Below, piece after piece: positions 61,554 through 64,000 of a stretch of DNA of 64,000 nt (the stretch's first letter is position 1; each line of letters begins with the position of its first letter). Source of the stretch: an uncultured Clostridia bacterium (GTDB taxonomy: Bacteria > Bacillota > Clostridia > TANB77 > CAG-508). Made by a program: the position numbers and the translations under genes. Below the pieces are notes generated by a model, which worked only from the letters and a program-made list of their open reading frames with translations, was not told the origin of the DNA and ran no database searches. Location: positions 10,789-74,788 of the forward strand of contig CAKPKP010000006.1 of the NCBI GenBank assembly GCA_934167495.1. Direction: 5' to 3'.

Positions 61554-61629
61554 TTATTTATATAATTTAAGGTAGAACTAATATGAAAATATTGGTTCTA
61601 TTTTTTTATCCACCAAAGGCTGTCAATGG

Positions 61630-61676
61630 GGACGGAGATTTTTGACACATTTTTTTCATGTCAAAAATCTCCGTCC
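61630..61676. repeat. Perfect 18-bp inverted repeat with an 11-nt T-rich loop, carrying the GGGACGGAG motif (copy 3)
   Basis: GGACGGAGATTTTTGACA-CATTTTTTTCA-TGTCAAAAATCTCCGTCC. There is no T-tract on either side. Confidence 0.75.
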
Positions 61677-61796
61677 AGTAGGCTTAAATTAAGTACACTT
61701 TAAATTTTATAAAAATACATTTTGTAAAAGACAGCTAAATAGATATAAATTATAGTTTTAAAAGTAGTGAAATTGAATTTTAGGAGGATTTTTGAA

Positions 61797-62156
61797 ATGA
61801 AAAATAAAATTACATATCATAAAGTTGGAAATTATTATTTACCAAATTTAACACTTGAAAAAAGTAAATATAGCAATTATTCTTTAAGTAAATATGGAAG
61901 AATGAGATTGAATTATTTAAAAAATCATAAAAAAGCTGAATACACTATTTTATTTATGTATAATAAATTAGATGAACATTTATATAATATAGATATAGAA
62001 TGTCAAAAACAATTTGAACTTTTAATGAAACAATTTGCTGAAAAAGAAAATATAACGGAGGAATTAAAAGCTAATAATCCAATGGAATGGGTGCAAAAAA
62101 TGAATAATATAAAAAATTCTGTAGAAGAAATAATTTTACAAAGATATATATTTTAA
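61797..62156 (+). CDS. Small hypothetical protein, possibly TnpV-like and transposon-associated
   Basis: AGGAGGATTTTTGAA-ATG. It translates as MKNKITYHKVGNYYLPNLTL…, about 120 aa. The family assignment is from memory of Tn4451-type TnpV and is weak. Confidence 0.35.
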   Translation: MKNKITYHKVGNYYLPNLTLEKSKYSNYSLSKYGRMRLNYLKNHKKAEYTILFMYNKLDEHLYNIDIECQKQFELLMKQFAEKENITEELKANNPMEWVQKMNNIKNSVEEIILQRYIF

Positions 62157-62291
62157 TAACTTAAAGTAATGGAATTTGCAATTTTATGTAAAATATTGTA
62201 TAATTATATTATACAAGTGTAGTTTCCTATTTTTTCATCTTGGAGAAGACTGCACATGGCAAAAAATATTTTTTTATAGGAGGACAATATT

Positions 62292-62549
62292 ATGTTTTAT
62301 CCAGAAGATTTCAAAACCAGAGTAAAGAAAGCTTATCCCAATTGGGAAGATCTGCATCGGAGGCTGGATAGTGGAGATGTCTTTGTAGGCCGCTATTTGG
62401 ATGACAATTCTACAACATCTTTATCTCTCGATACAATTTTGAATGCAACTTCTCTCGAGAAGTTACAGGAAAAGGCAAGAACTGCACAGGAGAAAGTAGA
62501 ACTCTATCGTGAGTGGAGCAACCTTTATCGTGAGCAGAACCCTCGCTAA
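62292..62549 (+). CDS. Hypothetical 85-aa protein in a GC-rich (about 42 %) island
   Basis: AGGAGG-acaatatt-ATG. It uses CGG, AGG and CTG codons that are otherwise rare in this window. A hairpin TGGCACACA…TGTGTGCCA lies just downstream. Confidence 0.5.
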   Translation: MFYPEDFKTRVKKAYPNWEDLHRRLDSGDVFVGRYLDDNSTTSLSLDTILNATSLEKLQEKARTAQEKVELYREWSNLYREQNPR

Positions 62550-62590
62550 TGGATAAAATAGTGGCACACATTTATATTGTGTGCCATTGT

Positions 62591-63133
62591 CTATTTATTA
62601 TCACTATATTTTAAAATATATTCTTTTAATATTGTTTCATCTCTCTTAATAATGAATTTTGTTGAATATATATTATCATATTTTGAACCTTTTAGATTAT
62701 TAAAACAATTACTGATTTTATGTAATGCTATTTTTGGAGTTAACCACAATAATTCTCCGCCTTCATCAATTTCTTTTTGTGTTAAATTTAATTTTTTAGT
62801 GTCATTTATTACCTTACTTATAAAAACATATGACGTTTGAATGAAATTCATTTTTGATTTTATTTCTTCTGTATAACCCATATAATTTAAAATTTTTACA
62901 TTACATCCCGTTTCTTCTAATACTTCTCTTTTAAATGCATTTTCTTTATTTTCATTTTGTTCAATTCCTCCGCCTGGCAATTTAAATTCATTTTTATTTC
63001 TTTTATATAATATTGCAATTTCTCCATTATCATTAAGAACAATTCCCCTAGAGGCAATTCTGATTAAAGGTTTGTCATAATTTATTGATTGTTCGCCAAT
63101 TTCTTTATCTGTAATTCTAGCTATTAAATCCAT
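62591..63133 (-). CDS. NUDIX hydrolase
   Basis: Nudix box GGGIEQNENKENAFKREVLEETG. AGGAG lies 8 nt upstream of the ATG at 63133; the ORF track's GTG start is at 63142. Confidence 0.8.
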   Translation of the reverse strand: MDLIARITDKEIGEQSINYDKPLIRIASRGIVLNDNGEIAILYKRNKNEFKLPGGGIEQNENKENAFKREVLEETGCNVKILNYMGYTEEIKSKMNFIQTSYVFISKVINDTKKLNLTQKEIDEGGELLWLTPKIALHKISNCFNNLKGSKYDNIYSTKFIIKRDETILKEYILKYSDNK

Positions 63134-63785
63134 TATATTCACTCCTAACTAGTATTAAATTATATAAATAATATCATAAAAATTTCTTATATTCAACACT
63201 CTAAATGTGTTATATAGTGAAAATAATAATTATTTATTGACATTTACATAAAAAAATGATATATATTAGATGTATTTTTAGTACACTGAAAAATTAATAG
63301 ACACGAAACACTGGTTAGTAAGGGATACAATAAGCTATTTTCTATCTTTCTCCAAAATTGAAAATTAAGATTTGTAGGAAACTTGTTAACCCAATGCGGT
63401 GAAAAATATTTGACTGTTTTAGAAGAATGGTTTGTAAAATGTCCAGTAGTGGTTAAGACCGATTAGCATGTTTCAAATAAAATTCACTACTTTGCAAAAA
63501 AATGCAATATTGGTAGTTTTATTTGTTGTGCCTAATGGGTCTTTTTGTTATGCTTACGAAAATAGCTAAATATGTATTGCCCTATTTTCTTACAAAGCAT
63601 AGCAAGAAGATACTGAAAAAATTTTATGCAGGTATGCAAAAAATTTTTCAGTAGTCAAAATAATATTTGAATGGAGATGAAAATATTATTTTGATTTGGC
63701 GAAGCCAAACATAAATTATCTATCGCAAGATTAGATAATTTATGAGCACTCCGCTAGTAGCCCACGACATCTTTGCAAACGTAGT

Positions 63786-63834
63786 TTGAAAGTGTCATAG
63801 TGAGTTACATACTTTCAAAGAAAGTTATGTAACA
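63786..63834 (+). promoter_or_regulatory. Nested inverted repeats upstream of the mob gene, a candidate oriT (RSA-like) site
   Basis: TTTGAAAGT…ACTTTCAAA (9 bp) and GTTACATA…TATGTAAC (8 bp), 45-95 bp upstream of the relaxase start codon. Confidence 0.35.
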
Positions 63835-63879
63835 GCTCCCTTTGGTCGCCTCTTGCTACCTGCAAGAAAGGATTTATAA

Positions 63880-64000
63880 ATGGACAAAACAAACTATTCG
63901 GTAGCTAGAGTAGAAACTTATACTAGAGCAAGTATTTTGAAAGCAGAAAGACATAATGAACGAAAAAACGAATCTTACTCTAATATGAATGTTGACTTAG
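63880..64000 (+). CDS. Mob/Pre-family plasmid-recombination/mobilisation relaxase, 5' end only (runs off the window)
   Basis: AAAGGA-tttataa-ATG. MDKTNYSVARVETYTRASILKAERHNERKNESYSNMNVDL matches the conserved N-terminus of pMV158 MobM / Tn4451 TnpZ-type relaxases (SxxVARxxKxK…RHNxR…N). Confidence 0.6.
   Translation, partial: MDKTNYSVARVETYTRASILKAERHNERKNESYSNMNVDL

What the first reader, a model, noticed from the sequence alone, without database searches (positions are those of the whole stretch)
61600..64000. Integrated mobilisable element beginning immediately downstream of rplS
After the conserved ffh…rplS operon the character of the sequence changes. The region holds a TnpV-like small ORF, an 85-aa ORF at about 42 % GC with atypical codon use, a NUDIX gene on the opposite strand and a roughly 700-bp GC-richer non-coding stretch with several inverted repeats. 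It also holds a nested inverted repeat typical of Pre/Mob oriT sites and the 5' end of a Mob/Pre relaxase that runs off the window. The layout resembles Tn4451/Tn4453-type mobilisable transposons or IMEs of clostridia. The 18-bp perfect inverted repeat at 61630-61676 is a candidate left boundary or attachment site.
Basis: partly seen in the sequence, partly recalled or inferred. Interest (0 to 1): 0.6.

Follow-up and report, generated by a model that had tools for sequence, protein, structure and literature searches.

The report
Decayed Tn4451-like mobilisable element after rplS
The window ends in the first 2.3 kb of a 5.5-kb mobilisable transposon that a serine recombinase inserted into a host palindrome just after the ribosomal gene rplS. 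It is an ordinary, mutationally disabled member of a family that is common in gut Clostridia.

Summary
TnpV (61797-62156), an 85-aa ORF at 41.5 % GC, a reverse-strand NUDIX gene, a 737-bp non-coding stretch and the first 40 codons of a Mob/Pre relaxase are all present.

Metagenome contigs with an identical RplS protein give both an empty site and filled sites. The insert is 5,543 bp and starts exactly at 61677. Its order is TnpV, orf85, NUDIX(-), oriT leader, MobV relaxase, TnpW, large serine recombinase (LSR). The att sites share only TCC, as expected for a 2-bp serine-recombinase crossover.

The 18-bp inverted repeat is host DNA, not an element end. It is what remains of a 79-bp host palindrome that was cut in its right arm.

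An intact relative sits on Enterobacteriaceae IncHI2 plasmids with aac(6')-aph(2'') cargo. A further 79 loci occur in gut Clostridia genomes. Most of those lie in the hairpin leader of a second MobV relaxase gene.

Here the element is disabled. The relaxase gene mob has a 5-bp deletion. The LSR has a 1-bp deletion and, in most copies, a nonsense codon. attR has lost 10 bp.

Interest is low to moderate.

The parts
61086..61553 (+). rplS, the last gene of the ylxM-ffh-rpsP-khpA-rimM-trmD-rplS operon. Host context, not part of the element.
   Evidence: PF01245, E 1.8e-48. The same protein is found on 56 contigs.
61572..61607 (+). Probable rplS intrinsic terminator (GTAGAAC...GGTTCTATTTTTTT). Host DNA, present in both empty and filled sites.
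   Evidence: Read from the sequence. Identical in the empty site L001.
61614..61676 (.). Remnant of a host palindrome. The left arm (61614-61648), loop and the first 18 nt of the right arm are kept.
   Evidence: Empty site L001 carries the full 79-bp palindrome with 35-bp arms. Other copies of the unit occur elsewhere in host contigs and vary between strains.
61674..61676 (.). Crossover region. TCC is the only sequence shared by attB, attL and attR. The 2-bp crossover is CC or TC.
   Evidence: Junction comparison of L001 (attB), the window/L004 (attL) and L004 (attR). The geometry is confirmed by the uninterrupted canonical target in L019.
61677..61698 (+). Left end of the element (P' arm of attP): AGTAGGCTTAAATTAAGTACAC. 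It is an imperfect inverted repeat of the right end GTGTACTTAACTAAAGGATTCTCC.
   Evidence: The end motif is conserved in 28 genome loci.
61797..62156 (+). tnpV (119 aa), intact in the window.
   Evidence: PF14198, E 1.7e-37. 49 % identical to TnpV of the IncHI2 plasmid element.
62292..62549 (+). orf85, a cargo gene of unknown function. Small all-helical protein, 41.5 % GC.
   Evidence: No family hit. Only 21 protein clusters are known. The AlphaFold2 model has pLDDT 89.8 and no PDB fold match. It travels with TnpV and NUDIX in L097 and L098.
62558..62590 (.). Bidirectional terminator-like hairpin between the convergent genes orf85 and NUDIX.
   Evidence: 13-pair stem on the + strand and 9-pair stem on the - strand. 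Three terminator-like sites were found where 0.6 are expected.
62591..63133 (-). NUDIX hydrolase (180 aa). Cargo gene.
   Evidence: PF00293, E 8e-12. Only generic NUDIX matches in NCBIfam, PADLOC and PHROGs. NUDIX cargo recurs in 3 of 49 cargo proteins of relatives.
63228..63879 (+). Conserved non-coding backbone upstream of mob. It includes a promoter-like TTGACA-17 nt-TATATA at 63237-63265. Module boundaries with relatives fall at about 63228, about 63596-63631 and about 63759.
   Evidence: 86-95 % identical in about 20 genome loci. No Rfam family matched.
63785..63833 (+). oriT-like overlapping inverted repeats (63785-93/63811-19 and 63804-11/63826-33) in the most conserved 120 bp before mob.
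   Evidence: The DNA fold energy is -12.8 kcal/mol, z = -3.75 against shuffles.
63880..64000 (+). 5' end of the MobV (Mob/Pre) relaxase gene. It runs off the window and includes the HxxR-type motif ERHNER.
   Evidence: PF01076, E 2.8e-6. In identical copies elsewhere the gene is split by a 5-bp deletion after codon 182.

Best explanation
Window 61677-64000 is the left 2,324 bp of a 5,543-bp integrative mobilisable element (IME) of the Tn4451 type.

Gene order: tnpV, orf85, NUDIX (reverse strand), a roughly 650-bp conserved leader with oriT, a MobV relaxase gene, tnpW, and a DUF4368-type large serine recombinase (LSR).

Integration (junctions shown, chemistry inferred). The LSR recombined the joined element ends, attP (...GTGTACTTAACTAAAGGATTCT-CC-AGTAGGCTTAAATTAAGTACAC...), with a host site, attB (TGTCAAAAATCTCCGT-CC-CCATTGACAGCC...). 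That site lies in the right arm of a 79-bp palindrome 60 bp past the rplS terminator. The exchange used a 2-bp staggered cut.

Transfer in intact relatives (inferred from family knowledge). The same enzyme excises a circle. The relaxase nicks oriT in the conserved 120 bp upstream of mob. A co-resident conjugative element supplies the mating pore.

State of the copy in this host lineage (shown on identical copies, inferred for the window). It is a fossil:
- mob carries a 5-bp deletion.
- The LSR gene carries a 1-bp deletion that puts its DUF4368 tail out of frame.
- Most copies also have a nonsense codon at LSR codon 237.
- The host arm of attR has lost 10 bp.

The element is therefore now inherited vertically. 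Its cargo ORFs tnpV, orf85 and NUDIX remain intact.
For: Empty and filled sites:
- They sit in contigs with an identical RplS protein and 99-100 % identical flanks. L001 is empty; L002-L004 and L007-L016 are filled.
- The insert is 5,543 bp, and the window part is base-identical to six of those contigs.

Junctions:
- attB, attL and attR share only TCC.
- The element ends form an imperfect dyad.

Protein domains:
- TnpV.
- Mob_Pre, TnpW, Resolvase+Recombinase+Zn_ribbon, and DUF4368.
- MobV.

Intact relative:
- It has the same gene order on K. pneumoniae pD610-HI2 and four other IncHI2-type plasmids.
- tblastn against its proteins shows the frame breaks in mob and the LSR.
- The deletions are visible at base level.
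- The nonsense position is element position 4530.

Wider family:
- 79 loci were found in gut Clostridia genomes, with a conserved backbone and variable cargo.
- Among 19 complete relatives, mob is a single ORF in all 19 and the LSR in 15.

Other:
- No phage DNA match.
Against: - The window stops at codon 40 of mob. The disabling mutations are inferred for this genome from identical copies on other contigs.
- One contig (L014) joins the same host junction and left 2,071 bp to a mob allele that is 8 % divergent and lacks the 5-bp deletion. It is either a real recombinant or an assembly chimera.
- L008 and L011 lack the LSR nonsense codon. It is untested whether a 476-aa LSR without the DUF4368 tail keeps activity.
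- No circular form, nick site or helper element was observed.
- The host species was not identified.
Confidence: 0.85

Rival explanations
1. The element is still an active IME in this host. The apparent frameshifts would be tolerated, bypassed, or complemented in trans by related IMEs in the same cell or community.
For: - tnpV, orf85, NUDIX and tnpW are intact ORFs.
- The element is present in about half of the contigs with this RplS protein, so it is polymorphic.
- L014 shows an intact mob allele at the same site.
- L008 and L011 keep a 476-aa LSR with all three catalytic and DNA-binding domains.
- Relatives with intact LSR and Mob are common in gut Clostridia and could act in trans on conserved ends and oriT.
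Against: - The 5-bp mob deletion and the 1-bp LSR deletion are shared by all eight full-length copies aligned.
- Most copies also carry a stop at LSR codon 237.
- The attR host arm is shortened by 10 bp in every filled site.
- All filled sites are at the one locus. No second insertion site was seen in this host.
Confidence: 0.12
2. The region is not an insertion. It is ancestral sequence downstream of rplS that was deleted in some strains, so the 'empty' site would be a deletion scar.
For: The filled and empty alleles differ by an extra 10 bp next to the junction, so the two states are not a perfectly clean insertion/excision pair.
Against: - The empty site is a perfect 79-bp palindrome, which the insert interrupts.
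- The insert ends match the conserved ends of 28 family members in unrelated genomes and sites.
- The same crossover geometry is seen at an uninterrupted canonical target in L019.
- 66 % of the element is 80 % identical to DNA on Enterobacteriaceae plasmids.
Confidence: 0.02
3. It is an integrated pMV158-type mobilisable plasmid or a prophage remnant, not a transposon-like IME.
For: The Mob/Pre relaxase with an upstream oriT is the hallmark of pMV158-family plasmids. NUDIX and TnpV have PHROG matches.
Against: - There is no rep gene or any other ORF left unaccounted for in the 5.5 kb.
- An LSR with matching att sites is present.
- No DNA match in 50,697 phage records.
Confidence: 0.01

Closest known systems
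Tn4451 / Tn4453 (Clostridium perfringens / Clostridioides difficile mobilisable transposons)
   Same: - Small IME with a large serine recombinase, TnpV, a MobV relaxase (TnpZ) with an upstream RSA/oriT, and TnpW.
- 2-bp crossover.
- Short element with a central cargo slot (review PMC5704250; Pfam TnpV and TnpW hits).
   Different: - No catP/catD and no TnpY-like ORF. The cargo is orf85 plus NUDIX.
- The LSR of intact relatives is 552-587 aa, against 707 aa for TnpX (TnpX length from my own knowledge).
- The LSR lies at the right end reading outward, whereas tnpX lies at the left end (own knowledge).
- The crossover is CC (or TC) rather than GA.
- The family shows strong site preference, whereas Tn4451 uses 'numerous sites (GA)'.
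- Direct sequence identity to TnpX and TnpZ could not be measured.
Tn6106 (putative mobilisable transposon inside Tn6103, C. difficile R20291)
   Same: [quoted passage not shown] That is the same layout as here.
   Different: - Tn6106 has 11 ORFs, including a regulator, and sits inside an ICE.
- Its excision was not detected.
Unnamed element on IncHI2 plasmids (K. pneumoniae pD610-HI2 NZ_MG288680; also C. freundii, E. cloacae and S. enterica plasmids)
   Same: - Closest sequenced relative found: 80 % nucleotide identity over element positions 1556-5490.
- Same order: TnpV, reverse-strand cargo, Mob (94 % / 85 % aa identity), TnpW (50 %), DUF4368 LSR (64 %).
   Different: - Its mob (429 aa) and LSR (556 aa) are intact.
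- Its cargo is aac(6')-Ie-aph(2'')-Ia plus a GNAT.
- It resides on a Gram-negative conjugative plasmid.
- Its ends were not defined here.
IME_oriT and other IMEs that integrate into conserved parts of other conjugative or mobilisable elements (Streptococcus; Tn6104 in traG)
   Same: Most family members (24 of 28 informative left junctions) sit in one conserved site about 28 nt upstream of a second, different MobV relaxase gene. That is, they lie inside another mobilisation module. This matches the concept of IMEs targeting oriT or ICE genes.
   Different: - Different recombinase and target families.
- In this window the target is a chromosomal palindromic repeat that only resembles the canonical site.
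pMV158 MobM / oriT (MOBV1 prototype)
   Same: - Mob_Pre domain with HxxR and HxDE...HxH-type motifs (ERHNER; HADE...HYHLHV).
- Overlapping inverted repeats immediately upstream of the relaxase gene.
   Different: - This is an integrated element with no rep gene.
- The nick site was not identified.
- The relaxase is frameshifted in this host.

Membership tests
Integrative and mobilisable element (canonical IME) | Own integration/excision enzyme with matching att sites | tested here: met
   [quoted passage not shown] The gene is a pseudogene in this host.
Integrative and mobilisable element (canonical IME) | Own relaxase and oriT, but no mating-pore (T4SS) or coupling protein genes | tested here: met
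   A Mob_Pre/MobV gene follows a conserved inverted-repeat region. All ORFs of the 5.5 kb are accounted for and none is T4SS-like.
Integrative and mobilisable element (canonical IME) | Presence/absence polymorphism at a precise site | tested here: met
   Of 23 contigs with an identical RplS protein, about 9 are empty, 12 are filled and 2 carry something else.
Integrative and mobilisable element (canonical IME) | Demonstrated excision and mobilisation | not testable with these tools
   This needs PCR for the circle junction and mating assays.
Tn4451/Tn4453 family | TnpV protein | tested here: met
   PF14198, E 1.7e-37, 128 bits against a cut-off of 27.
Tn4451/Tn4453 family | TnpW protein | tested here: inconclusive
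   The 88-aa ORF after mob scores 25.6 bits on PF14202, against a cut-off of 25. The plasmid homologue is annotated as TnpW family.
Tn4451/Tn4453 family | TnpZ-type MobV relaxase with an upstream RSA/oriT | tested here: met
   PF01076, E 3.4e-32. NF041497 MobV gives E 4e-16, but at 59.7 bits is below the model's 100-bit curated cut-off. Conserved overlapping inverted repeats lie at 63785-63833. Identity to TnpZ itself was not measured.
Tn4451/Tn4453 family | TnpX-type large serine recombinase | tested here: inconclusive
   The Resolvase+Recombinase+Zn_ribbon+DUF4368 architecture is present. The intact relative is 37.5 % identical to TndX of Tn5397. No TnpX sequence was available for comparison.
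Tn4451/Tn4453 family | GA crossover dinucleotide and low target specificity | tested here: not met
   The shared core is TCC, so the crossover is CC or TC. TC would read GA on the other strand. The family uses one preferred site in 24 of 28 informative left junctions, whereas Tn4451 uses 'numerous sites (GA)'.
Tn4451/Tn4453 family | catP/catD cargo and TnpY | tested here: not met
   The cargo is orf85 plus NUDIX. No other ORF lies between tnpV and mob.
Large serine recombinase integration system | N-terminal resolvase domain plus recombinase and zinc-ribbon domains | tested here: met
   PF00239, PF07508 and PF13408 on the 476-aa ORF of L008.
Large serine recombinase integration system | attP and attB are short imperfect dyads that share only the central dinucleotide | tested here: met
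   The attP arms GTGTACTTAA... are mirrored. attB arms of the form TGTCA...TGACA flank the CC core. The same geometry holds in four different target types.

The most novel reading that the evidence does not exclude
The family to which this element belongs may be a lineage of LSR-IMEs specialised to integrate about 28 nt upstream of a second family of MobV relaxase genes. Insertion there would cut that relaxase off from its hairpin leader (its probable oriT and promoter), making these IMEs parasites or competitors of other IMEs. On this reading, chromosomal palindromic repeats of low-GC gut Clostridia (unit TGTCAATGGGGACGGAGATTTTTGACA) act as look-alike secondary attB sites where copies become stranded and decay, as happened here. 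The 370-bp conserved non-coding module at 63228-63596 could be an undescribed regulatory RNA of the mobilisation module.
Probability: 0.3. Interest if true: 0.5.

Novelty: new member of a known kind. Interest (0 to 1): 0.3.

Why it matters
The result gives a base-exact attB/attP/attL/attR set for an uncharacterised but widespread LSR-IME family of gut Clostridia.

A close relative of this family already carries aac(6')-Ie-aph(2'')-Ia on Enterobacteriaceae IncHI2 plasmids. The family therefore moves cargo between Gram-positive commensals and Gram-negative pathogens.

The defined att sites could be used to test a new serine integrase. They also allow these elements to be annotated in metagenome-assembled genomes.

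The copy in this window is a dead remnant with cargo of unknown function, so by itself it is of limited interest.

Tried and rejected
- Rfam scan of 61000-64000 at a permissive threshold. The only result was a chance mir-548 hit on the palindrome. Rfam on four related loci gave only tRNAs.
- Phage DNA search: no match.
- PADLOC, PHROGs and NCBIfam on the cargo proteins. NUDIX gave only generic matches and orf85 gave nothing, so no defence-system assignment is possible.
- AlphaFold2 model of orf85. The model is confident, but there is no PDB fold match with E below 2.
- Host identification failed. The genome scan did not return the host species; the nearest is a Lachnospiraceae MAG (L079) at 75 % nucleotide identity in ffh-rplS. 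The exact-sequence look-up returned no names.
- Paper PMC105645 (Tn4453) is not held, so the Tn4451 gene order rests on my own knowledge.
- Composition (GC and skew) as evidence of foreign origin: rejected as too weak.
- The idea that the 18-bp repeat is a terminal repeat of the element: rejected, because it is present in the empty site.
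Full report
**What is in the window**

Downstream of rplS (61086-61553) and its terminator-like hairpin (61572-61607) the sequence contains, in order:
- a perfect 18-bp inverted repeat at 61630-47 / 61659-76. The motif occurs nowhere else in the window, where 0.04 matches are expected;
- tnpV at 61797-62156 (PF14198, E 1.7e-37);
- an 85-aa ORF at 62292-62549 with 41.5 % GC, against 26.7 % for the host;
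- a bidirectional terminator-like hairpin at 62558-62590;
- a NUDIX gene on the reverse strand at 62591-63133 (PF00293);
- 746 bp without a convincing ORF;
- the first 40 codons of a Mob/Pre relaxase from 63880 (PF01076, E 2.8e-6).

The compositional argument is weak: only orf85 stands out in GC, and the non-coding stretch is 28.5 % GC.

**Proof of insertion and exact boundaries**

I looked up the exact RplS protein and orf85 in public assemblies. This returned gut-metagenome contigs from the same organism.
- L001 goes straight from rplS to a 492-aa gene.
- L002-L004 and L007-L016 carry an extra block between them. The block holds TnpV, orf85, NUDIX(-), Mob_Pre (183 aa plus 236 aa), an 88-aa ORF, and a resolvase-type gene.

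BLAST of the empty site against the filled ones places the insert between L004 positions 10591 and 16135. The flanks are 99-100 % identical.

The insert is 5,543 bp. The 2,324 bp that lie in the window are base-identical to L002, L004, L007, L009, L012 and L016.

The junctions read as follows:
- attB: ...GTGTCAAAAATCTCCGTCC CC ATTGACAGCCTTTGACAC...
- attL: ...CTCCGTCC|AGTAGGCTTAAATTAAGTACAC
- attR: GTGTACTTAACTAAAGGATTCTCC|CCATTGACAC...

Only TCC is common to both junctions, which is what a 2-bp serine-recombinase crossover (CC or TC) leaves behind. The two element ends are an imperfect inverted repeat (GTGTACTTAA...), so the joined ends form a dyad-symmetric attP.

In window coordinates the element starts at 61677.

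**The 18-bp inverted repeat is host DNA**

In the empty site the repeat is part of a perfect 79-bp palindrome with 35-bp arms. The element landed in its right arm, leaving 18 nt of that arm.

The palindrome unit (TGTCAATGGGGACGGAGATTTTTGACA) recurs in host contigs:
- as an extra copy of about 95 bp, present in L002 but absent from L001 and L004;
- as single units flanking dxr;
- as tandem units.

It is therefore a strain-variable repeat of REP or MITE type.

All filled sites also lack 10 bp (GCCTTTGACA, lying between TTGACA repeats) of the host arm of attR.

**The rest of the element and its state**

Pfam assigns the following:
- the 88-aa ORF to TnpW (25.6 bits, cut-off 25);
- the recombinase to Resolvase+Recombinase+Zn_ribbon;
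- a 53-aa ORF just after it, in another frame, to DUF4368.

A distant-BLAST search of plasmids found an intact relative on K. pneumoniae pD610-HI2 and four other Enterobacteriaceae plasmids. It is 80 % identical over element positions 1556-5490. It is annotated TnpV, aac(6')-Ie-aph(2'')-Ia plus GNAT (reverse strand), plasmid recombination protein (429 aa), TnpW family protein, and DUF4368 recombinase (556 aa).

tblastn of those proteins on our element shows two frame breaks:
- Mob residues 1-182 and 189-424 lie in different frames.
- LSR residues 1-470 and 474-556 lie in different frames.

At base level these are a 5-bp deletion in mob and a 1-bp deletion in the LSR gene.

Other differences between copies:
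- L002-type copies, the type the window matches, also have a C-to-T nonsense change at element position 4530 (LSR codon 237).
- L008 and L011 lack that change but have a 1-bp deletion in tnpV.

One partial contig, L014, keeps the same host junction and left 2,071 bp. It then switches to an 8 % divergent mob allele without the deletion. It is either a recombinant or an assembly chimera.

On balance the copy in this lineage is a non-autonomous remnant. For the window itself this is inferred from identical copies, because the window ends at mob codon 40.

**The family**

A scan of 185,579 species-representative genomes with the intact Mob gave 79 loci, nearly all in uncultured gut Clostridia MAGs from human, mouse and ruminant samples.
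- The backbone (element positions 1555-5543) is 75-92 % identical.
- The left end plus tnpV is 67-87 % identical.
- The stretch between them is variable cargo.

The cargo includes GNAT acetyltransferases, KilA-N, DUF1016/YhcG nucleases, NUDIX, HAD hydrolases and radical-SAM enzymes.

Among 19 complete relatives, mob is a single ORF in all 19 and the LSR in 15. The family as a whole therefore looks functional.

The end motifs are conserved.

**Target sites across the family**

In 24 of 28 informative left junctions the flank is the same sequence (...AAGTCCTAACCC|). This lies about 28 nt upstream of a second, different MobV relaxase gene on the opposite strand.

An uninterrupted copy of that target (AAGTCCTAAC-CC-CCTATGAG) exists in L019. 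It confirms the same crossover geometry.

Our element, L039, L045 and L069 instead sit in GGGACGGAG-type palindromic units. These resemble the canonical site (TGTCA...TCC..CC-CC.T...). The rplS site is therefore best read as a secondary, look-alike attB.

**The non-coding region**

Positions 63228-63879 are 86-95 % identical in about 20 loci. Breakpoints with other relatives fall at about 63596-63631 and about 63759.

The last 120 bp contain fully conserved overlapping inverted repeats (63785-93/63811-19 and 63804-11/63826-33). These fold better than shuffled sequence, z = -3.75. This is the expected place and form of a MOBV oriT.

A TTGACA-17 nt-TATATA motif at 63237 is conserved. No Rfam family matches.

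**The cargo**

orf85 belongs to a family of only 21 protein clusters.
- It recurs with TnpV and NUDIX in two other loci next to a MobV gene, one of them with SMODS cargo.
- It also occurs in a plain chromosomal context.
- Its AlphaFold2 model is confident (pLDDT 89.8), all-helical, and has no PDB match.

NUDIX gives only generic matches. The function of the pair is unknown.

**Comparison with known elements**

The parts list and the 2-bp crossover match Tn4451/Tn4453 and, in layout, Tn6106 of C. difficile.

The element differs from Tn4451 in six ways:
- cargo;
- no TnpY;
- a shorter LSR;
- the position of the LSR gene;
- the crossover dinucleotide;
- a marked site preference.

Tn4451-like elements with diverse cargo are already reported as common in gut Clostridiales, and MOBV1 IMEs are abundant in gut Firmicutes.

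This is therefore a new, decayed member of a known kind.

Noticed in passing
window 61614-61676; L001 10529-10607, 15903, 17151; L002 18160-18255; L012 64-140: The host carries a strain-variable palindromic repeat, unit TGTCAATGGGGACGGAGATTTTTGACA. One copy of about 95 bp, with a 9-bp duplicated flank (ACATATTTT), is present in L002 but absent from L001 and L004. Single units in inverted orientation flank dxr, and tandem units also occur. It looks like a MITE/REP-type element, and a similar unit is the target in the mouse-gut MAG L039.
   Followed up: partly
L005 10545-10644: In another strain a different sequence is inserted inside the same rplS-proximal palindrome, after GGGGACGGAG. The contig ends about 100 bp later. 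The palindrome may be a hotspot for more than one element.
   Followed up: no
L014 11450-12425 (equivalent to window ~63748 onward): This contig has the same host junction and left 2,071 bp of the element. It then switches to an 8 % divergent mob allele without the 5-bp deletion. The switch point coincides with a module boundary seen in 5 genome loci (about 63759; four more start 9-45 nt further on). That suggests recombination at or near oriT, or an assembly chimera.
   Followed up: partly
window 63228-63596: A 370-bp non-coding module is conserved at 86-95 % in about 20 family members. It has a conserved promoter-like TTGACA-17-TATATA at 63237, no Rfam match and no convincing ORF. It may be a long leader or a regulatory RNA of the mobilisation module.
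   Followed up: partly
L017 (NZ_MG288680.1 204416-218391) and four other plasmids: An intact family member carrying aac(6')-Ie-aph(2'')-Ia sits on IncHI2-type conjugative plasmids of Klebsiella, Citrobacter, Enterobacter and Salmonella. This is a Clostridia-type IME inside Gram-negative resistance plasmids.
   Followed up: partly
L097 5589-10131: A related IME has the same TnpV-orf83-NUDIX trio, followed by a SMODS nucleotidyltransferase and three more genes (a CBASS-like cargo).
   Followed up: no
window 61086-61553: RplS is 155 aa. It has a C-terminal extension of about 40 residues, rich in E, A, T and V, beyond the L19 domain (Pfam covers residues 3-112).
   Followed up: no
L079 9769-18750: In a Lachnospiraceae MAG a family member lies about 1.3 kb upstream of the ylxM-ffh...rplS operon, which is 75 % identical to the window's. 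It is unclear whether this proximity to the same operon is coincidence.
   Followed up: no
L001 10799-12277 vs L002 16801-17832 vs L003 16245-17834: The first host gene after the element has no Pfam hit and is highly variable between strains (492, 343 or 529 aa; about 92 % nucleotide identity at its start).
   Followed up: no
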